A DNA stretch of 47,732 bases from a virus (Duplodnaviria; Heunggongvirae; Uroviricota; Caudoviricetes), in IMG/VR virus record IMGVR_UViG_2562617057_000003; one strand, written 5' to 3'. Made by a program: the position numbers and the translations under genes. The notes beneath the pieces are model-generated. The model was not told where the DNA came from. It searched no databases and saw nothing but the letters and a program-made list of their open reading frames with translations. The number at the start of each line of letters is the position of its first letter. The stretch's first letter is position 1. Shown here piece by piece: positions 32,435 through 46,645 of the stretch.

Positions 32435-32821
32435 CTACATAATTCGTTCTACATATCTGTCCATCTCCAGCCGGATATCAAGCATCATCAACATGCCATC
32501 GATAACCCCTTCCGCCTTCTGCAGGCGCTTACCAACACAGGTATCCGAACATCCAAGTTTCCGTGCCAGACTCATAAAAGTCATTCCATATACGTAATAA
32601 TCCACCAGCAAATCGTGCAAATCCTGATTTTTCTTGTTTAACCGGGCCATACAGCCACAAATTATCATTGCATCATCATCAGAACACTGAGGACGTGATT
32701 TCACTTTCGACGGAATTAACCCTTTAAAACCAGCAGCGATCGACGCCCAGGATACATCTTCATGAGTGTTTGCAGCCCAAGCCCCCCACCGTTCCATAAC
32801 CTGCTGAATATCACGCGCCAT
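32435..32821 (-). CDS. Q: Late antiterminator Q (phage 82 / 21 type)
   Basis: [61 protein letters not shown]... zinc-binding Q82-like; ATG 32821 with RBS AGGTG. Confidence 0.88.
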
Positions 32822-32826
32822 CGTTA

Positions 32827-33189
32827 TCACCTGTGATTTCGTAAATCTTCACGCCCAGCCGCCCCCCCAGGAACGCGCTGACCGCGCACAATATTGATTT
32901 CATCAAACTGCTCGTCGTCTATGAGAAGTCCGGCATGCGTCAGCGCATCCAGTGGTGCTTTCAGGATATTGTCCAGGTCACGACGACGTTTATCCGGTGG
33001 CTCTGCAATAATCTTTATCGCCAGCCTTCCGGACAGGTTTAATTTCAGCCGCTGCTGGCGAACAATAAGCGCCACATCACGGCGATAACGCTCACCGGCT
33101 TTTGATACAAAATATGTGCTGCCACGACGTCGCCAGTAAGTGTTCACCGTTGGCGGGTAAGGCAAAACAAATTCTATGCGTTCAGTCAT
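32827..33189 (-). CDS. rusA: RusA Holliday-junction resolvase
   Basis: 120 aa, ...[13 protein letters not shown]...[30 protein letters not shown] RusA motifs. Confidence 0.9.
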
Positions 33190-34254
33190 TCATGCTTTCC
33201 ACTTCAGGACACCCGAATTTCTCGCGTGCATTAAAAAACGAATCAGCAACAACAGCTGGCTGCTGTGTTTTTCTTCAAAATCTTTTACCCCGGCGTGCAG
33301 TTCGTTATGACATTTACGGCACAACGGAATAACAAACAAATCGTCAGCCTTTGTTCCCATCCCTCCCAGTCCATGACCAATGATGTGATGCGGATCATCT
33401 GCCTGATTGCCACACGTCATGCATTTCTGCGTTTTTACCCAACGCGTGTATACAGGCATCTCTTCCCGTTGTGGTTTCTGGCGCTGGAGATACTGAGCCG
33501 GAGATTCCGGATCAACGGCAATGCTGACCACCGTCTTTTCCTGTGGTGGGTTCTGTTGCTGGTGCTGGTGGACGTGAGGCGGTAGCGCAATATTTTTTGT
33601 GCGCTGCTTCAGTATGCTGGTGGCTGTCTGTTCTCCCGGTATGATGTCGCTCTCGCGGTATATTGAGCGGATTTTTTCTGCTCGTACCCCCAGAGAGCGA
33701 CGTAATACTGCCTCCGGCAGTGCGTCCGCTACCTGATTGCAGACTGCCCACCAGGATAATTCAGCCAGCGATAACTCCCGCTCCTGCGTGCCATTCACTG
33801 CATGGCGTATGACGTCAATCATCCATGCTGACAGGTTTTGATGAGCAAGTTGCCCGAGTGATTCGGAGGTCTGGTCACGCAGCTGGTTGTCGCAGTGCCA
33901 GCACAACACCATCGCGCCGGTACCATAACGATGTATGACGATTTCACTGTGATGATAGTCACCATGAGGCCACTGGCAGGATTTGACATGACGCAACAGC
34001 CAGTCAGACAGTGCCCCAGCGCCGCCAGCAGCACGAATCACCCGATCATCGCTGAAAAATGGCAGTAATGATTTATCCTCCGCCAGCGGCTGGCGAACGG
34101 CAGGGACGACTCCGGATGGCAGGCCGCACATGCTTTTCGGTTCCGGCTCCACGAGCACTCGAAGATTGTGAAATACCTGCATGGATTCACGACCTGGCTT
34201 AAGGACCACCAGCCCGAGTTCCGGCACCAGAACAGGTCTAAGTAATACCCGCAC
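33190..34254 (-). CDS. DUF968-type protein with C-terminal HNH/zinc-finger motif (YdfU-like)
   Basis: 354 aa; C-terminus CMTCGNQADDPHHIIGHGLGG...PLCRKCHNELH; start uncertain (GTG 34254 or ATG 34182). Confidence 0.78.
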   Translation of the reverse strand: MRVLLRPVLVPELGLVVLKPGRESMQVFHNLRVLVEPEPKSMCGLPSGVVPAVRQPLAEDKSLLPFFSDDRVIRAAGGAGALSDWLLRHVKSCQWPHGDYHHSEIVIHRYGTGAMVLCWHCDNQLRDQTSESLGQLAHQNLSAWMIDVIRHAVNGTQERELSLAELSWWAVCNQVADALPEAVLRRSLGVRAEKIRSIYRESDIIPGEQTATSILKQRTKNIALPPHVHQHQQQNPPQEKTVVSIAVDPESPAQYLQRQKPQREEMPVYTRWVKTQKCMTCGNQADDPHHIIGHGLGGMGTKADDLFVIPLCRKCHNELHAGVKDFEEKHSSQLLLLIRFLMHARNSGVLKWKA

Positions 34255-34255
34255 G

Positions 34256-34534
34256 TTACCTCCAGATTCGTTGCTGGTATGTGCGGGATGAACGCGGTGG
34301 GCGTTCGGAGTAAGGGAGTCTGACTGAGATTATCCAGTGACGGTAGTCGAGGCTAAGAGCTTTCTTAACCTCGTATCCGCGCCTGCGGTAACACTGAATT
34401 ATCCATTCCGCCTGCTCTTCAGTGCATGGAGGATGCTGGAACCAGTCTGATTTGAATGCGTGAAAACGCCGTCCGCACCTACTGGCAAAGACGGCAGAAT
34501 CATTAGAATTGTGTAATTTGGTATCGTGCGCCAT
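34256..34534 (-). CDS. Hypothetical protein (about 92 aa); start uncertain
   Basis: ORF-track ORF extends to 34663, but 34600-34701 carries two terminator-like hairpins, so the ATG at 34534 is preferred. Confidence 0.45.
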   Translation of the reverse strand: MAHDTKLHNSNDSAVFASRCGRRFHAFKSDWFQHPPCTEEQAEWIIQCYRRRGYEVKKALSLDYRHWIISVRLPYSERPPRSSRTYQQRIWR

Positions 34535-34599
34535 CGGTTGTCTCTGCTGGCGCAGCAGGTGCCAGTTGTTCAGGCTGGCGTGCGAATTGTAAACCAGAA

Positions 34600-34633
34600 T
34601 GCCAGGAAAAAACAAAACCCGCCGAAGCGGGTT
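34600..34633 (-). terminator. Intrinsic terminator downstream of hok
   Basis: Minus strand stem CCCGC/GCGGG with a 4-nt loop followed by TTTTGTTTTTTCC; a second perfect 9-bp hairpin GGCGAGGGA-TTTC-TCCCTCGCC at 34680-34701 abuts the hok stop. Confidence 0.6.
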
Positions 34634-34701
34634 ACGTGCGGGTGCGTTGAGGATGCCTGACACATCAGAGGTGGCGAGGGATTTCTCCCTCGCCTGGTCT
34701 C

Positions 34702-34857
34702 TTACTCCTCAGGTTCGTAAGCTGTGAAGACAGCGACCTCCGTCTGGCCGGTTCGGATTCGTACCTCGCAGAGGTCTTTCCTCGTTACCAGTGCCGTCAC
34801 AATGACGGTAATACAGATGACGATCAGGGCGACTAACATCGCCTTTTGCTGCTTCAT
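34702..34857 (-). CDS. hok: Hok/Gef-family type I toxin
   Basis: 51 aa MKQQKAMLVALIVICITVIVTALVTRKDLCEVRIRTGQTEVAVFTAYEPEE, near-identical to E. coli HokD/RelF-type toxins. Confidence 0.9.
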   Translation of the reverse strand: MKQQKAMLVALIVICITVIVTALVTRKDLCEVRIRTGQTEVAVFTAYEPEE

Positions 34858-35068
34858 AGCCTGCTTCTCCTTGCCTTTCGGCACGTAAGAGGCTAACCTA
34901 GATTTGCCGTTCATAGATTGAGCCTCAGATTAATGTTAAGCGTCTTGCCGGACGCGTAATGTTAACTGGGGCTTTTCTCTATCTGCCTTTTGGTGTTCAT
35001 GCCTGAGACAGATAGCCTCAAGCACCCGCTGCAATTCTACTTAACTCTCCTTTTCCCGCAAACCGTTT
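34858..35068 (-). promoter_or_regulatory. hok mRNA leader (mok-like upstream ATG; expected site of antisense Sok RNA)
   Basis: About 210-nt leader with an in-frame upstream ATG at 34914 and several hairpins, as in hok/sok loci; Sok promoter not pinpointed. Confidence 0.45.
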
Positions 35069-35152
35069 TTATCCCCAGCGGCAAATCGAATACACCACCA
35101 GCGCCACCGCCAGTGCGATTCCTACCGTTGTGAATGCTTCAGACCAGGTCAT
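35069..35152 (-). CDS. Putative 27-aa hydrophobic peptide coupled to the upstream 171-aa gene
   Basis: ATG overlaps the upstream stop (ATGA); MTWSEAFTTVGIALAVALVVYSICRWG, a single TM-like helix; not in ORF track (under 60 aa). Confidence 0.35.
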   Translation of the reverse strand: MTWSEAFTTVGIALAVALVVYSICRWG

Positions 35153-35664
35153 CGTAAAACATCCTCCACGCTTATCAGTCCATTTCGTTTCAGGTAATCC
35201 ATCGCCTTCTCCGGTAATTTGCAGTCCGGCTGAGCTTTTTTCAGTTGACTGACCAGTCGTTTAACCCACATTGTTAATTCGCTAACCTGATTACTGGATG
35301 CTAGTGGATTGTCAGCTTTACCCAGAATGGCAGCACAGCAGGCCTCTTTGAGTACCCAATCAACAGCATCTTTCCATGCTCCTGTTTCAGCTGGCGGATT
35401 TTCACGCTTTACCTGTTCATAAAAGCGCACGGCTTTAACCAGTCCTTCTGATGTCACCGGGACTGGCGGGGCAGTGAATAAGGCCTGAATCTCATAGCTC
35501 GGCCTGTCGTTGCAATCCTCTTTTGTCGGTACATATTTCCAGTCACCAACCCACATCTTCTCCTGAAAGTCCGTAACGCTTTTTTTCACATAGCGATATC
35601 GCCATGCAACTGGTTTTGCCTGCCCTACCGTTTCATGCCCTTCCTGATAATTAATCTCGCTCAT
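35149..35664 (-). CDS. Hypothetical 171-aa nin-region protein
   Basis: Long ORF with ATG start coupled to the upstream small ORF (ATGA overlap); no family recognised. Confidence 0.65.
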   Translation of the reverse strand: MSEINYQEGHETVGQAKPVAWRYRYVKKSVTDFQEKMWVGDWKYVPTKEDCNDRPSYEIQALFTAPPVPVTSEGLVKAVRFYEQVKRENPPAETGAWKDAVDWVLKEACCAAILGKADNPLASSNQVSELTMWVKRLVSQLKKAQPDCKLPEKAMDYLKRNGLISVEDVLR

Positions 35665-36107: not shown

Positions 36108-36563
36108 TTATTCAGTTTTTATTCCTGCTCTCAAAACAGCCTCTGCCATTCTGATATCCGGATTTTCTGAAATCATCTTTTCCGGCGAGTCGCAATCACC
36201 ACCACATTCAGTTATGCGTTCATGACCAAAACGAATTGTGGTTTTGTGCGCATTAATCATTTGTGTAAGCGCATCTGTCAATTCTGCAATGCGTTTGTCT
36301 TTAACTTCCAGCTCTTTCAGTAAAGCCAGTACGTCAGGATCGCTAACATCAACGACGGTTACGCGCGATTTCAGGTAATGCTCATCCGCAAAAGTTCGAC
36401 CAGTTTTAAAATATCCATCATCCCCCTCACCTGTGCAGGCATACACAATATGCGTTCTGGAAAATATGCGCTGTATCGACATTTCATCGCCACAAACAGG
36501 ACATTCCGGCACCTGAATTGGTGAATAACGTTCACGTAATGCCTGGTAATTAGTCTTGCACAC
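36108..36563 (-). CDS. Hypothetical 151-aa protein with Cys-rich zinc-finger-like motifs
   Basis: GTG start with RBS AGGAG 7 nt upstream; CPVCG near the N-terminus and CGGDCD near the C-terminus. Confidence 0.6.
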   Translation of the reverse strand: MCKTNYQALRERYSPIQVPECPVCGDEMSIQRIFSRTHIVYACTGEGDDGYFKTGRTFADEHYLKSRVTVVDVSDPDVLALLKELEVKDKRIAELTDALTQMINAHKTTIRFGHERITECGGDCDSPEKMISENPDIRMAEAVLRAGIKTE

Positions 36564-36849
36564 TGGCTGTCTCCTGAAAAATCACCGCATGCCCCAGTTT
36601 CTCCGCCAGCGCCAGTTCTGCCTTAGCGCCTGCCGACCGATGCCAGCCTTTCAGCATGTAAATCGTATCCACACAGCGGAGCATCGCCGTACAAATATCC
36701 ATGTACTGCGCCTGTGTCAGCCCACCAGGAAGCACTGCCGGATTCAACACCGTGCACCCTTTCTGTTTCAGCTTCTCTTCCGCCTCGTGAAATGCCTCAC
36801 GGTTGAAATTTTTATACCCGGTCATCGGCCCTGCGATATAAACCCTCAT
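36550..36849 (-). CDS. DUF4406-like protein (nucleoside deoxyribosyltransferase-like fold)
   Basis: 99 aa MRVYIAGPMTGYKNFNREAFHEAEEKLKQKGCTVLNPA...; ATGA coupling to the upstream gene. Confidence 0.7.
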   Translation of the reverse strand: MRVYIAGPMTGYKNFNREAFHEAEEKLKQKGCTVLNPAVLPGGLTQAQYMDICTAMLRCVDTIYMLKGWHRSAGAKAELALAEKLGHAVIFQETASVQD

Positions 36850-37265
36850 ATCGTTGCTCCGTTATTACCCCTGTAAAACATCAAAACTCGCTGCATAACT
36901 TCACTTCTCCGGCACTCGCGACAGATTATGTTCTGTCGTCTGTTGTAACGACGTATTTCTCCGTCTGGTAATGACCAGATAAGGTCAGGATCAACCACAA
37001 CCGGTTTCCTCACCTTTACTCTCGAGAGTTTTTTGCGGGCGCTTTGCCAGTCCTTGCGAGCCTGTTCAGACGGGAATAAGCCGTAGCCAGAATTATATAC
37101 ATCACCACTTGCGACCAGTTCCATGCATAAGCGACCGACAGACGCACGACTGATACCTGTTTCATCTGACAACTGCCGAATCGTGACCCGACCGTCCTGA
37201 TGCACGAGTTCCACAATTCGCGTCTTCAGTTCTTCCCGCTGTTCGGGAGTAAAAGGTTTCGCCAT
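36846..37265 (-). CDS. Hypothetical 139-aa HTH-containing protein
   Basis: Strong RBS AGGAGG 4 nt upstream; HTH-like segment VTIRQLSDETGISRASVGRL. Confidence 0.65.
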   Translation of the reverse strand: MAKPFTPEQREELKTRIVELVHQDGRVTIRQLSDETGISRASVGRLCMELVASGDVYNSGYGLFPSEQARKDWQSARKKLSRVKVRKPVVVDPDLIWSLPDGEIRRYNRRQNIICRECRRSEVMQRVLMFYRGNNGATI

Positions 37266-37279
37266 AAATCCTCCTGAAA

Positions 37280-38026
37280 CTACTTAACAACCCTCGAATG
37301 GCTAACATTCGGACGCCAGCTCTCCCAGTTAAAATTCACCCAGCGCCCGCCGTTCATGACCATGCGATCCATCACCCGCTCGCCGAGAAGTGTATTCATC
37401 GCTGCATGGTTAATATTTGTCAGCATCCCCACACCGCGTAACGATGCCGTCCGGCGATCAACAATCTGGTTCAGTACCACCTGCTCGTTTTTCGTATCCC
37501 GCTGCATGCCAATTTCATCCAGGACCAGCAGGTCAACACCACAAAGCTCCTGTAAAAATTTTTCACCGGATTTGCCGTTGTCGTAGCTCTCATGCAACAC
37601 GCTCATGACATCGGACACGGTGACGATAATCACGCTACGCCCCTTCGCCATCAGCCGGTTGCCAATCGCGGCTGCAAGATGATTTTTTCCGGTGCCGGGC
37701 TTACCGCTGAACACAAAATTCGTGCACCCGGTCATCAGTTCGTCAGCGATGGATTTTGCCTGGCTCAGCGCGTGTTTTTGCCCGTCGTTCTGCACCTGAT
37801 AATTCGCAAACGAGCATTTGCTGTGCAGAGGCTGGATGCCCGAACGATTCAGGATTTTTTCCACCCGCAACTGGCGATTCTGGCGGTTGATCTCCTCGCT
37901 ACGTTTTCGCCCTTCTGCTAGTTGCCACTCGCGCCACTCGTCCACTGTCCGGTACGGCGCGATTACATGCCGCGGGGCCAGCTTACGGATACGCTCAAGA
38001 ACACCACCTGCCGCGATATTTTTCAT
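37280..38026 (-). CDS. DnaC-like helicase loader (IstB-type AAA+ ATPase)
   Basis: 248 aa; Walker A GKPGTGKNHLAAAIG and Walker B LLVLDEIG. Confidence 0.88.
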   Translation of the reverse strand: MKNIAAGGVLERIRKLAPRHVIAPYRTVDEWREWQLAEGRKRSEEINRQNRQLRVEKILNRSGIQPLHSKCSFANYQVQNDGQKHALSQAKSIADELMTGCTNFVFSGKPGTGKNHLAAAIGNRLMAKGRSVIIVTVSDVMSVLHESYDNGKSGEKFLQELCGVDLLVLDEIGMQRDTKNEQVVLNQIVDRRTASLRGVGMLTNINHAAMNTLLGERVMDRMVMNGGRWVNFNWESWRPNVSHSRVVK

Positions 38027-38032
38027 GGCCCG

Positions 38033-38998
38033 TTACCCCCTGAACCCCGGCGGTATTTCAGTATCCGGTTCAGAAATGTGATTCACGCAACGCTGTACAG
38101 GCGAACGCCCCAGACGAATAACCAGCTCATCCCATTTTTCGCGAAGCTTTGACGGGCTCATGACGTTTTTTACCCAGAATGGATCCCGCTGTACCCGACC
38201 AAACATTTCGCAAATTTGTCTGTGAGTTCTGCCATCCAGCATCCGCATTGTGCGCACGTCGTTGGCCCATGCGGTCCAGTTGGGTTCTTTCGGTCGCGAA
38301 ATCTCGCCATCATCGCTGGCGGCCTGCTCGTAAAGACTCACGATTCGCCCCCAGAACCACTGCGCACACGCCAAATCTTCCTGGCTGCCCCACTGGCGTT
38401 TTTTCGCACTGAACACAACCGCGCCAGGGTGTCGGGTTAAAAAATCCTGTTCAACCGTCTGCGGGTCCGGTTGCGAAGCTTCCGGACGAGAAGTCTTTTT
38501 ATTCTCTGTAGTAATCTCTGTTGTATTCTCTGTAAGATCATCAGGCCATTTTGACCCGATGACATTGGGTCGTTTTGAACCAATGGAGCGTGCCATTTTG
38601 GCCTCTTCCATCGTGTCATTTTGACCTGATGGAGCAGCGCATTTTGACCTGATGGATTCGCTCACTTTGCCACCATCTAAAAGCTCGCTCTCGTAATTAA
38701 TCGTGTAAAAATTAGTCATATCACGCTTTGATTTGTTGAGCTTTTCGCAACGCAAAAGCCCCAGCGTTTTCAGACTTGCAAATGCGCGTTTTAACGTTGA
38801 CTCTGACCAGAACGGGAACTGCTCCAGCCATTGTTCTGTTGTGTTATAAATCCAGCGAACACCATCACATTCCATGCCGGAACCGGTATCTCTCAACCAG
38901 TAATGCAACTGCTGCAACACGATGGCTTCATTCAGACCAATTTTCATCGCCAGCTGCGTGTTTATAACCAGCGGGCGTTCAGCAAAAAGGAGCTTCAT
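38033..38998 (-). CDS. Replication initiation protein (O-like / YdaU-like), contains the origin iterons
   Basis: 321 aa; N-terminal HTH-like domain; immediately upstream of the DnaC-like gene; iterons inside the coding sequence. Confidence 0.8.
   Translation of the reverse strand: MKLLFAERPLVINTQLAMKIGLNEAIVLQQLHYWLRDTGSGMECDGVRWIYNTTEQWLEQFPFWSESTLKRAFASLKTLGLLRCEKLNKSKRDMTNFYTINYESELLDGGKVSESIRSKCAAPSGQNDTMEEAKMARSIGSKRPNVIGSKWPDDLTENTTEITTENKKTSRPEASQPDPQTVEQDFLTRHPGAVVFSAKKRQWGSQEDLACAQWFWGRIVSLYEQAASDDGEISRPKEPNWTAWANDVRTMRMLDGRTHRQICEMFGRVQRDPFWVKNVMSPSKLREKWDELVIRLGRSPVQRCVNHISEPDTEIPPGFRG
38500..38700. repeat. Putative origin of replication: three ATTCTCTGT repeats (38501-38535) plus at least five CATTTTGACCTGATGGA-type iterons (38547-38680) and an AT-rich segment
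   Basis: CATTTTGACC at 38547 and CATTTTGACCTGATGGA at 38617 and 38640, with variants at 38572, 38594 and 38662. Confidence 0.65.
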
Positions 38999-39448: not shown

Positions 39449-39730
39449 TCAACCTCCATCAGCCTTTTTGGTGTTAAGTTCATATTTGTGACGTGAAGGA
39501 GACGTGATTCCAGTGTATTCGGGCCATATAAGATCCCAGTCATTAGGTCTCAATTCTCGTCTTGTAACATGTCCTCCAGTTTCTGCTTCTATCATCAACG
39601 CACGAACAGGAGACACAGGTGAAGTTCCAGATGCCATTTGGGACAAGAAAGACGGAGACACACCAAGATTGGTCGCAAATTTTTTTGCTTCTCCAGTTTT
39701 TAATGATTTGATGAATTCCTTTAGCGTCAT
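39449..39730 (-). CDS. Cro-like / YdaS-like HTH regulator
   Basis: 93 aa, HTH KFATNLGVSPSFLSQMASGT; first gene of the rightward operon, divergent from the repressor. Confidence 0.72.
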   Translation of the reverse strand: MTLKEFIKSLKTGEAKKFATNLGVSPSFLSQMASGTSPVSPVRALMIEAETGGHVTRRELRPNDWDLIWPEYTGITSPSRHKYELNTKKADGG

Positions 39731-46375: not shown

Positions 46376-46645
46376 ATGAGCGAACAGTACCTGATAACGC
46401 TCGACGAGTGGAAACCAAAACGGTTCAGTCTCCCAATAACAAACACTACCCTGGTGAAATACGGAAAACTAGGATACATCGTTCCAAGGCCACAAAAAAT
46501 TCGTGGGCGTTGGCTGATAGATCGCCGGGCAGTATTTGTTGGGCCTGGTGAAACGGGAATTGCGCCGGAAATTCATACTGGCGATGATGATGCACTGAAG
46601 GAGATTTTAACTCATGTCACCGAGGCCACGAAAAAACAGCACTGA
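46376..46645 (+). CDS. xis: Excisionase-like protein
   Basis: About 89 aa MSEQYLITLDEWKPKRFSLPITNTTLVKYGKLGYIVPRPQKIRGRWLIDRRAV...; immediately upstream of and overlapping int; RBS GGAG. Confidence 0.65.
   Translation: MSEQYLITLDEWKPKRFSLPITNTTLVKYGKLGYIVPRPQKIRGRWLIDRRAVFVGPGETGIAPEIHTGDDDALKEILTHVTEATKKQH

What the first reader, a model, noticed from the sequence alone, without database searches (positions are those of the whole stretch)
34600..35152. hok-type type I toxin locus with an additional coupled 27-aa hydrophobic peptide upstream
A full-length Hok (51 aa) with a long structured leader and two 3' hairpins is present. Just upstream, a 27-aa single-TM peptide ORF is coupled by ATGA overlap to the 171-aa gene. 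It could be a second small membrane toxin-like peptide or just a coupled terminal ORF.
Basis: partly seen in the sequence, partly recalled or inferred. Interest (0 to 1): 0.5.

Follow-up and report, generated by a model that had tools for sequence, protein, structure and literature searches.

The report
Known hok/sok toxin plus unannotated microprotein
The region holds an ordinary, already characterised hok/sok toxin-antitoxin cassette of a lambda-like prophage, and just upstream a real but almost never annotated 27-codon gene for a tiny membrane peptide that is conserved in many E. coli phages and is not itself part of the toxin system.

Summary
Everything lies on the minus strand. The hok part is confirmed and known. 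It has a 51-aa Hok (Pfam HOK_GEF, E 6e-24), an in-frame 70-codon mok, and a 170-nt leader (Rfam RF01794, 112 bits). The 5'/3' tac-fbi pairing is intact (fold z = -7.6). [quoted passage not shown]

The 27-aa ORF (35069..35152) is also real, and more than a chance ORF. It belongs to a fixed-length family, here called F1 (M-x-W-P-E/D-A-F ... Y-S-I-C-R-W-G). F1 is found in 92 phage records, in 128 IMG/VR loci (57 distinct DNAs) and in about a quarter of complete E. coli genomes. Its variability by codon position is 0.58/0.24/0.97. It has a conserved Shine-Dalgarno sequence and an ATGA (or similar) overlap with whatever Ea22-like/DUF551 gene precedes it.

F1 is not tied to hok: about half of F1 copies have no hok downstream, and about half of close hok relatives have no F1. 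It has no promoter, leader or antisense RNA of its own, so a second type I toxin is not supported. Its function is unknown; the most likely reading is a single-pass inner-membrane microprotein. Other phage hok loci carry unrelated small membrane ORFs at the same position.

The parts
35149..35664 (-). 171-aa upstream gene: a mosaic accessory protein of unknown function (PHROG 660). Its stop overlaps the start of the 27-aa ORF.
   Evidence: ORF. phrog_660 E 2e-74; its C-terminal 25-70 aa are shared with four other PHROGs. Annotated WP_001290002.1 'hypothetical protein' in E. coli O121. No Pfam hit.
35162..35167 (-). Shine-Dalgarno sequence GGAGGA for the 27-aa ORF, inside the 3' end of the upstream gene, 9 nt before the ATG.
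   Evidence: Read from the sequence. A GGAGG-type motif (GGAGGTG or GGAGGA) precedes the ATG in nearly all of the 128 homologous junctions.
35069..35152 (-). 27-codon gene (family called F1 here): MTWSEAFTTVGIALAVALVVYSICRWG. Predicted single-pass membrane microprotein, coupled to the upstream gene by ATGA.
   Evidence: Conserved 27-codon length. 34 peptide and 57 DNA variants. Entropy by codon position 0.58/0.24/0.97. pN/pS 0.2-0.8 for most pairs of divergent variants (highest about 1.0). No Pfam, PHROG or NCBIfam family.
35034..35062 (-). hok promoter: -35-like TTTGCG/TTGCGG (35062..35056) and -10 TAGAAT (35039..35034). It starts 7 nt after the stop of the 27-aa ORF.
   Evidence: Read from the sequence. 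Invariant apart from one base in the 4-way alignment with 933W. Not picked up by the strict consensus scan. Inferred by position relative to the Rfam-defined 5' end.
34858..35027 (-). hok mRNA leader, with the 5' tac element GGGUGCUUGAGG.
   Evidence: Rfam RF01794, 112.4 bits, model positions 1-157 of 157. In the 418-nt fold the 5' end pairs with the 3' fbi element.
34702..34914 (-). mok reading frame: 70 codons, in frame with hok and ending at the same stop.
   Evidence: ORF. Same layout as the annotated mokW of 933W.
34702..34857 (-). hok toxin CDS, 51 aa.
   Evidence: Pfam HOK_GEF E 5.8e-24. phrog_251 'MokW-like host killing' E 7e-33. PGAP names the gene at the matching position hokD in strains whose DNA is 99-100% identical here.
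34871..34899 (+). Sok promoter: TTGCCT, 17 nt, TAACCT.
   Evidence: Read from the sequence. Invariant in the alignment with 933W, whose sokW promoter was inactivated by mutation in PMC8621323.
34906..34976 (+). Sok antisense RNA. Coordinates are transferred from the 933W sokW annotation. It ends in a long hairpin plus TTTTCTC.
   Evidence: sokW misc_RNA in 933W, mapped through the alignment. Expression was not tested here.
34673..34694 (-). First 3' UTR hairpin: GGCGAGGGAGAAAUCCCUCGCC.
   Evidence: Fold. 933W carries changes on both arms of the stem.
34638..34652 (-). fbi element: CCUCAACGCACCCGC, complementary to the mRNA 5' end.
   Evidence: Fold (MFE -177.1 kcal/mol, z -7.63). Invariant.
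34606..34633 (-). Intrinsic terminator of hok mRNA: AACCCGCUUCGGCGGGUU plus a U-run.
   Evidence: The only terminator-like site found in 34500..35300.

Best explanation
Two separate things sit side by side in the early-right (pR, nin-like) operon of a lambdoid prophage, between the replication genes and RusA/Q.

(1) An intact hok/mok/sok type I toxin-antitoxin cassette of the hokW/hokD type. A stable, folded-shut hok mRNA is kept silent by 5'-3' (tac-fbi) pairing and by the short-lived antisense Sok RNA, which blocks mok/hok translation. When Sok disappears, Hok inserts into the inner membrane. These steps are inferred from sequence identity with hokW-sokW, for which toxicity, antitoxin activity and production on prophage induction have been shown.

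(2) A genuine 27-codon gene, family F1. It is translated by ribosomes that terminate on or arrive from the preceding Ea22-like/DUF551-type accessory gene, through a conserved Shine-Dalgarno sequence and the ATGA overlap. It gives a single-pass inner-membrane microprotein: Trp/Tyr belts at residues 3 and 21/26, an acidic N-terminus probably facing outwards, and Arg25 facing inwards.

F1 belongs to the Ea22/DUF551 accessory gene array, not to the toxin system. Its most likely role is as a small modulator of a membrane protein or process during early phage development. That last step is inference; the function itself is unknown.
For: hok/sok:
- Pfam HOK_GEF; Rfam leader at 112 bits.
- tac-fbi closure, z = -7.6; terminator.
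- 91-92% DNA identity to 933W hokW over 34630..35152, with the Sok promoter invariant.
- Experimental proof for hokW-sokW (PMC8621323).

F1 is a real gene:
- tblastn finds full-length 55-93% identical copies in 92 phage records.
- A protein-level DNA pattern that leaves codons 7-20 free found 128 IMG/VR copies, all open and hydrophobic.
- A second pattern that did not fix codon 27 or the stop still gave 27-codon ORFs in every true hit.
- Variability at codon positions 1/2/3 is 0.58/0.24/0.97, permutation p < 1e-5. pN/pS is 0.2-0.8 for most pairs, with conservative replacements.
- An SD plus ATGA (103 of 128) or a nearby stop-start overlap occurs behind unrelated upstream C-termini.
- Mosaic homology breaks fall exactly at its ATG (933W and others) or at its stop (phage 640R1).

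F1 is independent of hok:
- Roughly half of the 128 F1 copies have no hok within 900 nt, once copies too close to a contig end are set aside.
- F1 also lies before xis/int, before other genes, or before a terminator, and in the lytic phage Av-05.
- Of 80 close hok relatives, 38 have F1 DNA; 34 of these are intact.
Against: There is no direct evidence that F1 is translated or membrane-inserted. No Ribo-seq or proteomic record was found: the peptide strings are absent from the searchable literature and from two small-ORF supplements.

Between close relatives, such as the window and 933W, most changes in F1 are non-synonymous (about 7 amino-acid changes against 2-3 silent ones). Constraint is therefore mainly on hydrophobicity and the two ends.

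About 10% of copies next to hok are damaged: two W3-to-stop, one 4-codon deletion, one with start and stop lost.

The antisense frame is also open in 55 of 57 variants.

Many sampled loci are closely related, so the counts are not independent events.

The enrichment of small membrane ORFs directly upstream of hok (53 of 76 against 6.5% background) hints at a link that this explanation treats as incidental.
Confidence: 0.7

Rival explanations
1. F1, and the other small membrane ORFs found at the same place in other phages, are functionally linked to hok. One version: a membrane partner or modulator of Hok. Another version: their translation carries ribosomes on read-through early-operon transcripts right up to the hok promoter, so that induced early transcription runs into the cassette, collides with the convergent sok promoter and releases Hok.
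For: F1's stop is 7 nt from the hok -35 element, and no terminator lies between the upstream operon and hok. 933W shares the block from the F1 ATG to fbi as one module.

In hok-anchored loci, a membrane-like small ORF ends within 160 nt of the hok leader in 53 of 76 cases, against 6.5% of background windows. These ORFs belong to at least three unrelated families, F1, F2 and F3.

PMC8621323 reports that SokW disappears and HokW appears only on RecA-dependent induction, and leaves the cause open. In 933W the F1-hokW block lies downstream of int across attP, so it joins the pL operon only after excision.
Against: About half of F1 copies have no hok, and about half of hok copies have no F1. F1 occurs in a lytic phage that has no hok next to it. 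Conservation at the amino-acid level in hok-free contexts shows that the peptide has a role of its own. The loci are phylogenetically non-independent, and phage accessory regions are generally rich in small membrane ORFs.
Confidence: 0.15
2. F1 is not a functional peptide. It is an open frame that hitch-hikes in a recombination-prone junction, conserved because of DNA or RNA functions (upstream part of the hok promoter, a recombination joint, the end of the upstream gene) or because the copies diverged recently.
For: It is never annotated by PGAP in the RefSeq records inspected. Close variants differ mostly by non-synonymous changes. Some copies carry stops or deletions. Its taxonomic range is narrow: Escherichia and Shigella, with a few Salmonella and E. 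albertii.
Against: The second codon position is the least variable and the third the most (p < 1e-5). Silent variation occurs at the conserved R25 and G27 codons. The fixed 27-codon length, the start and an SD are kept behind unrelated upstream genes and in front of unrelated downstream sequence. The two other sense-strand frames contain stops in 56-57 of 57 variants. PGAP's silence is adequately explained by the short length: an 84-nt gene falls below the minimum gene length I recall for common gene callers (my own knowledge, not tested here).
Confidence: 0.1
3. F1 is itself a small membrane toxin, either a second type I-like toxin or a holin-like helper that depolarises the membrane together with Hok.
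For: It has the size and hydrophobicity typical of type I toxins, it is adjacent to hok, and it is expressed only from an operon that is repressed in the lysogen.
Against: It has no promoter, long leader or antisense RNA of its own. No promoter-like site was found on either strand in 34500..35300 and no Rfam hit falls over the ORF. It is translationally coupled inside an operon. It has no similarity to any Pfam, NCBIfam, PHROG or type I toxin family.
Confidence: 0.05

Closest known systems
hokW-mokW-sokW of Stx2 phage 933W / Sakai prophage Sp5 (and the PGAP 'HokD' class of lambdoid prophages)
   Same: 91-92% DNA identity from the F1 ATG to the fbi element. Same Hok length, in-frame mok, leader, tac/fbi pairing and Sok promoter. 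The 27-codon ORF upstream is also present in 933W, unannotated.
   Different: Here the cassette lies in the pR/nin-like region between the replication genes and Q, not at the attR end behind int. The terminator after fbi is different, and the first mok codons and the Sok 5' region differ. The Hok protein differs at a few residues.
hok/sok of plasmid R1 (prototype type I toxin-antitoxin)
   Same: The same architecture of toxin, overlapping mok, antisense Sok in the leader, and long-range 5'-3' pairing. The Sok promoter layout is TTGC.. then 17 nt then TA.CCT; the comparison with R1 is from my own recollection of its sequence.
   Different: The Hok proteins are only about 44% identical (figure from PMC8621323 for HokW against R1 Hok). 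The context is a prophage, not a plasmid. No small membrane ORF upstream of R1 hok is known to me (my own knowledge, not tested).
Small single-pass inner-membrane proteins of E. coli of 25-50 aa, such as YohP, KdpF, CydX, AcrZ and MgtS (named from my own knowledge)
   Same: Size, one hydrophobic helix with aromatic residues at the interfaces, frequent omission from annotation, and often the last, translationally coupled ORF of an operon.
   Different: No sequence similarity to any of them. Pfam and NCBIfam gave nothing for the window peptide, and only sub-threshold chance matches for two variants. F1 is phage-borne and always follows Ea22-like/DUF551 mosaic genes. No partner protein is known.
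Ead/Ea22-like and DUF551 mosaic accessory genes of the lambdoid exo-xis/nin regions
   Same: F1 is consistently the next ORF after a member of this mosaic family (C-termini ..HWMPLPEPPQEVNQ or ..RNGLISVEDVLR). The window has an Ead_Ea22 gene at 36108..36563.
   Different: F1 is a separate reading frame, not a domain of these proteins. The protein-database clusters that mix it with DUF551 proteins contain no fusion sequence among the members read. The papers on Ea22 and the exo-xis region that I searched do not mention it.

Membership tests
hok/sok type I toxin-antitoxin (Hok/Gef family) | Toxin ORF of about 50 aa matching the Hok/Gef profile (N-terminal membrane helix, conserved Cys-containing periplasmic tail). 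| tested here: met
   Pfam PF01848, 83.9 bits against a cut-off of 22, profile positions 1-42 of 42. phrog_251 E 7e-33. The NCBIfam Hok subfamily models are below their cut-offs (48.6 against 73).
hok/sok type I toxin-antitoxin (Hok/Gef family) | Overlapping mok reading frame that starts in the leader. | tested here: met
   A 70-codon ORF at 34702..34914 that shares the hok stop, laid out like the annotated mokW.
hok/sok type I toxin-antitoxin (Hok/Gef family) | Conserved structured leader, and long-range pairing of the mRNA 5' end (tac) with a 3' element (fbi). | tested here: met
   Rfam RF01794, 112.4 bits against 59, full length. In the MFE fold, nt 1-14 pair with the 3' element; z = -7.63 and 0 of 100 shuffles fold as well.
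hok/sok type I toxin-antitoxin (Hok/Gef family) | Antisense Sok RNA with its own promoter and terminator inside the leader. | tested here: met
   TTGCCT-17-TAACCT at 34871..34899 (+), followed by a hairpin and T-run ending near 34976. The sequence is invariant against 933W sokW. This is sequence-level only; the strict consensus scan did not call the promoter.
hok/sok type I toxin-antitoxin (Hok/Gef family) | Toxicity of Hok and neutralisation by Sok. | not testable with these tools
   Shown for the roughly 92% identical hokW-sokW (PMC8621323).
Type I toxin (as a class), for the 27-aa ORF | Small hydrophobic membrane peptide. | tested here: met
   27 aa. The best 17-residue Kyte-Doolittle mean is 2.2.
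Type I toxin (as a class), for the 27-aa ORF | Own promoter and mRNA, with translation controlled by a cis or trans antisense RNA. | tested here: not met
   The start codon overlaps the stop of the upstream gene and the SD lies inside that gene. No promoter-like site was found on either strand in 34500..35300. No Rfam match covers 35069..35152.
Type I toxin (as a class), for the 27-aa ORF | Growth arrest or membrane damage on expression. | not testable with these tools
   Needs inducible expression.
Genuine small protein-coding gene (conserved small ORF) | Reading frame, length, start and stop conserved across divergent homologues. | tested here: met
   All true homologues have 27 codons, including those found with a pattern that left the last codon and the stop free. 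34 of the 38 copies next to hok are intact.
Genuine small protein-coding gene (conserved small ORF) | Substitution pattern of a coding sequence. | tested here: met
   Entropy by codon position 0.58/0.24/0.97 in codons not fixed by the search pattern; permutation p < 1e-5. pN/pS is 0.2-0.8 for most pairs of divergent variants (highest about 1.0). Caveats: the sequences are related, and close pairs show mostly replacement changes.
Genuine small protein-coding gene (conserved small ORF) | Ribosome-binding site. | tested here: met
   GGAGGTG or GGAGGA lies 5-9 nt before the ATG in nearly all junction types.
Genuine small protein-coding gene (conserved small ORF) | Direct evidence of translation. 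| not testable with these tools
   No record was found in the searchable literature or in two small-ORF supplements.

The most novel reading that the evidence does not exclude
Small single-pass membrane ORFs of at least three unrelated families (F1 of 27 aa, F2 of 34 aa, F3 of 59 aa) are a regular upstream companion of phage-borne hok cassettes. They end a few tens of bases (about 45-90 nt) before the start of the hok leader, at the end of an early operon that has no terminator before hok.

This arrangement could be the missing trigger of prophage Hok. On induction, early transcription is translated right up to the cassette and runs into it head-on against the sok promoter. Sok is shut off and Hok is released. 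In 933W this can only happen after excision joins the block to pL-int across attP. The small membrane peptide might in addition act with or against Hok in the membrane.
Probability: 0.15. Interest if true: 0.6.

Novelty: new member of a known kind. Interest (0 to 1): 0.33.

Why it matters
The hok/sok cassette itself adds nothing new.

The 27-codon gene matters modestly. It is present in about a quarter of complete E. coli genomes and in the Shiga-toxin phages 933W, Sp5 and VT1-Sakai. RefSeq annotation omits it in every record inspected here, probably because it is so short, and it has no family, name or function. It is a clean candidate for the small-protein field.

Its position, together with the absence of a terminator before hok, also gives a concrete and testable idea for a question that the hokW-sokW paper left open: what makes SokW vanish and HokW appear when the prophage is induced.

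Tried and rejected
I used tblastn against phage records and degenerate DNA patterns, plus a 45-aa in-frame extension as a query. That last search returned only 'hypothetical', 'bacteriophage protein' or 'DUF551, partial' entries.

2. Pfam, PHROGs and NCBIfam found no family for the peptide. The weak DUF883_C and PTR2 matches (E 0.04-0.25) are chance matches of hydrophobic sequence.

3. The species-representative genome scan gave 53 hits. About 46 are chance matches in unrelated phyla: their frames are not open, or they lie inside long proteins. Only the Escherichia and Shigella hits are real, plus two tiny contigs that are probably contaminants.

4. The protein-database clusters that place the peptide with 121-aa and 185-aa DUF551 proteins suggested a fusion or a frameshift product. 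None of the members read contains the peptide, and no slippery heptamer precedes the stop, so I dropped the fusion/frameshift idea.

5. The peptide strings were searched for in all held papers, and in the supplements of the Sakai small-gene paper and the Enterobacteriaceae microproteome preprint. Nothing was found.

6. The antisense ORF (34990..35133, + strand) was considered as the true frame. It was rejected because its second codon positions would be more variable than its first, it has no conserved start, and it begins inside the hok leader.

7. The weak Rfam isrK and rsmX hits at 34612..34698 are below threshold. They merely reflect the hok 3' hairpin plus terminator.
Full report
**1. The observation**

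All features lie on the minus strand of the window.

- The 51-aa ORF at 34702..34857 is MKQQKAMLVALIVICITVIVTALVTRKDLCEVRIRTGQTEVAVFTAYEPEE. It matches Pfam HOK_GEF over the whole profile (83.9 bits, cut-off 22) and PHROG 251, 'MokW-like host killing'.
- A 70-codon ORF (34702..34914) extends it in frame. This is how mokW is annotated in phage 933W.
- Rfam family RF01794 ('sok') matches 34852..35027 on the minus strand at 112.4 bits (gathering score 59). The match covers all 157 model positions and ends at the hok AUG. On this evidence the model describes the sense-strand hok leader.
- Folding the presumed 418-nt transcript (35029..34612) gives -177.1 kcal/mol and z = -7.63 against shuffles. 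The first 14 nt (GCGGGUGCUUGAGG) pair with CCUCAACGCACCCGC at 34638..34652. This is the tac/fbi closure typical of hok mRNAs.
- Two 3' hairpins exist. One is at 34673..34694. The other is the only terminator-like site found in 34500..35300, at 34616..34633 plus a T-run.
- The 27-aa ORF MTWSEAFTTVGIALAVALVVYSICRWG occupies 35069..35152. Its ATG overlaps the TGA of the 171-aa gene (35149..35664) as ATGA.

**2. The hok part is known**

The stretch 34630..35152 is 91.4% identical to 933W. In 933W, mokW, hokW and the antisense sokW RNA are annotated.

Transferred through the alignment, Sok maps to about 34906..34976 (+). Its promoter, TTGCCT-17-TAACCT (34871..34899), is invariant between the window, 933W and two E. 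coli prophages. So are the hok -10 element TAGAAT (35039..35034), tac and fbi. Differences in the first leader stem and in the 3' hairpin fall on both arms of the stems.

Takada et al. (PMC8621323) showed the following for hokW-sokW:

- HokW is toxic.
- sokW, expressed from its own promoter, neutralises it.
- After mitomycin C, sokW RNA disappears and HokW is made in a RecA-dependent way.
- The locus doubles phage release.

PGAP names the gene at the matching position hokD in strains whose DNA is 99-100% identical here.

**3. Context in the window**

On the minus strand the order is:

| Feature | Coordinates |
|---|---|
| cro-like gene | 39449..39730 |
| putative replication gene (no Pfam hit) | 38033..38998 |
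| DnaC-like gene | 37280..38026 |
| DUF977 | 36846..37265 |
| Ead/Ea22-like gene | 36108..36563 |
| small ORFs | between 36108 and 35664 |
| 171-aa gene | 35149..35664 |
| 27-aa ORF | 35069..35152 |
| hok/sok | 34606..35062 |
| 92-aa phrog_1212 gene | 34256..34534 |
| DUF968 | 33190..34254 |
| RusA | 32827..33189 |
| Q | 32435..32830 |

The integrase lies at 46614..47732 on the plus strand. The cassette therefore lies in the nin-like part of the early-right operon.

No terminator separates the upstream genes from hok. The stop of the 27-aa ORF (35069) is 7 nt from the -35-like hexamer of the hok promoter.

**4. The 27-aa ORF is a conserved gene family (called F1 here)**

RefSeq annotation never lists it in the records I inspected. 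However, the homology between the window and other prophages breaks exactly at its boundaries:

- 933W and many E. coli prophages match up to 35152, the A of its ATG. Beyond that they carry unrelated upstream genes that all end in the same ATGA: DUF551 proteins, a gene named 'methyltransferase', and the 171-aa protein.
- Phage 640R1 matches only up to 35074, next to the ORF's stop.

tblastn finds full-length copies at 55-93% identity in 92 phage records. These include:

- Stx2 phages: MTWPEAFANVGTVMAVVLVVYSICRWR.
- VT1-Sakai: MNWPEAFTAVGVAIAVAFILYSLFRWG, followed by xis and int.
- PhiR12: MSWPDAIVTLGMVFAAAFVVYSICRWG.
- Shigella phage POCJ13, where W3 is a stop.
- The lytic Vequintavirinae phage Av-05.

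They comprise 57 distinct DNAs and 34 peptides. All have an open, hydrophobic middle.

A looser pattern, without codon 27 or the stop, was run over one genome per species. It gave true hits only in Escherichia and Shigella, plus two probable contaminant contigs. Every true hit again had 27 codons. Protein databases add E. albertii and Salmonella.

DNA similar to the window's copy is present in 1329 of 5426 complete E. coli genomes.

**5. Coding signature**

- In the 16 codons not constrained by the search pattern, mean column entropy is 0.58, 0.24 and 0.97 at codon positions 1, 2 and 3. A permutation test of the position 3 minus position 2 difference gives p < 1e-5.
- The fully conserved R25 and G27 vary freely at their third positions.
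- Uncorrected pN/pS between the seven most divergent variants is 0.2-0.8 for most pairs (highest about 1.0), and replacements stay hydrophobic.
- The other two sense-strand frames contain stops in 56-57 of 57 variants.
- The antisense frame that shares the wobble positions is open in 55 of 57 variants. It would have its second positions more variable than its first, and it has no conserved start.
- The junction upstream always carries GGAGGTG or GGAGGA 5-9 nt before the ATG. This holds inside two unrelated C-terminal coding contexts..PLPEPPQEVNQ and ..RNGLISVEDVLR. The upstream stop overlaps as ATGA in 103 of 128 cases and lies a few bases upstream in the rest.

Caveats:

- The loci are related, so the counts are not independent.
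- Between close relatives most changes are replacements (window against 933W).
- 4 of the 38 copies next to hok are damaged.

The pattern fits a peptide selected for a hydrophobic span flanked by conserved ends. Trp3-Pro4-Glu5 and Tyr21...Arg25-Trp26 are spaced about one bilayer apart.

**6. Relation to hok**

Roughly half of the 128 pattern-derived F1 copies are followed by hok at 188-464 nt and roughly half are not, once copies too close to a contig end are set aside. F1 can instead be followed by another gene, by a terminator, or by a second small membrane ORF.

Conversely, of the 80 IMG/VR loci encoding the closest Hok relatives, 38 contain F1 DNA, 34 of them intact, and 42 contain none. 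The tie is therefore frequent but facultative.

F1 has none of the attributes of a type I toxin gene other than being small and hydrophobic. It has no promoter, no leader, no antisense RNA, and no similarity to any toxin family.

What F1 always follows is a member of the mosaic Ead/Ea22-like, EaA or DUF551 accessory proteins. The mosaic nature of these proteins is described in PMC10834534. Neither that paper nor the exo-xis review PMC8614690 mentions such an ORF.

**7. Best explanation, and what remains open**

The cassette is an intact hokW-type toxin-antitoxin system.

The 27-aa ORF is a real, translationally coupled gene for a single-pass inner-membrane microprotein. It belongs to the Ea22/DUF551 accessory array. 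Its function is unknown. I consider a modulator of a membrane protein or process during early development the most likely role; that is inference only.

A second toxin is unlikely, and a meaningless ORF is unlikely.

**8. An observation that keeps a more interesting reading alive**

In hok loci that lack F1, other small membrane ORFs sit at the same spot:

- F2, 34 aa: MSDDISLAMEGALAVIAVVGVYCLVVFLMDRLGN or MWEVIVLVLKCALAIAAVMAIYCLVIVLMDHLSD.
- F3, 59 aa: MKNALQFLF...MCIEYWR.
- A possible F1 relative in phage 640R1.

Tandem F1-F2-hok arrangements also occur.

A membrane-like small ORF ends within 160 nt of the hok leader in 53 of 76 loci, against 6.5% of control windows (the loci are not independent). 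F2 and F3 appear in databases only as 'hypothetical protein' or 'membrane protein'.

There is no terminator before hok. In 933W the block L0142..L0139-F1-hokW lies at the attR end on the same strand as int, so it lies downstream of pL-int only after excision.

Together these suggest that induced early transcription reads into the cassette against the sok promoter. This would explain the loss of SokW on induction, a point the hokW paper leaves open. It is a hypothesis, and I give it about 15%.

**9. Verdict**

- hok/sok: already known.
- The 27-aa ORF: a new, essentially unannotated member of the class of small phage membrane proteins, of moderate interest.
- Overall interest: about 0.33.

Noticed in passing
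IMG/VR loci L185-L264 (hok-anchored), 45-92 nt upstream of the hok leader: hok loci without the 27-aa ORF carry other small membrane ORFs at the same position. F2 is 34 aa (MSDDISLAMEGALAVIAVVGVYCLVVFLMDRLGN or MWEVIVLVLKCALAIAAVMAIYCLVIVLMDHLSD). F3 is 59 aa (MKNALQFLF...MCIEYWR). Tandem F1-F2-hok also occurs. A membrane-like small ORF is present in 53 of 76 loci against 6.5% of background windows. F2 and F3 are known only as 'hypothetical protein' or 'membrane protein'.
   Followed up: partly
L002 and L265 (phage 933W, AF125520: 1-9000 and 55896-61409): The 933W record is in prophage orientation, with the attL core at 1-7. L0142..L0139, the unannotated 27-codon ORF and hokW lie at the attR end on the same strand as int and xis. 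They lie downstream of the pL-int transcript only after excision, which recalls lambda sib logic. This may bear on why HokW appears only on induction.
   Followed up: partly
window 34852..35027 (-): The Rfam family named 'sok antitoxin' (RF01794) matches the strand of the hok mRNA and ends at the hok AUG. In this locus the model therefore describes the sense-strand leader, not the antisense Sok RNA. An automatic annotation would put 'sok' on the wrong strand.
   Followed up: partly
window 34614..34632, compared with L001 2633..3211 (E. coli strain G5): The closest E. coli prophages have an extra segment of about 580-660 bp between the hok terminator and the next gene. It encodes a 130-aa hypothetical protein (WP_000737635.1). 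The window lacks it, so this is a mosaic indel right after the hok terminator.
   Followed up: no
window 35149..35664 (-): PGAP calls the same 171-aa gene an intact hypothetical protein in E. coli O121 (WP_001290002.1). In strain G5, which is about 98% identical at the DNA level here, it is called a pseudogene 'missing C-terminus'. The last 25-70 residues are shared with four other PHROG families, so this is a recombination joint inside the gene.
   Followed up: partly
window 34256..34663 (-): The mechanical 135-aa ORF overlaps the hok terminator and 3' UTR. Annotated relatives start at the internal ATG (92 aa, 34256..34534; phrog_1212; called 'toxin to Rem' in one phage record). The long form is probably not real.
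   Followed up: no
L144 (Xanthomonas pisi, 431-bp contig) and L169 (Acinetobacter idrijaensis, 369-bp contig): Two tiny contigs in non-enterobacterial assemblies carry E. coli-phage copies of the 27-codon ORF. One is identical to the 933W type. They look like assembly contamination rather than true occurrence.
   Followed up: no
L011 (Shigella phage POCJ13) and two IMG/VR hok loci: In these copies the conserved Trp3 codon of the 27-codon ORF is a stop. Another copy has a 4-codon in-frame deletion, and one has lost both start and stop. These show occasional decay of the gene.
   Followed up: partly
window 34612..34693 (-): A sub-threshold Rfam match to the Salmonella Hfq-binding sRNA isrK (27.8 bits against a gathering score of 50) covers the hok 3' hairpin and terminator. 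It is probably only a hairpin-plus-terminator resemblance.
   Followed up: no
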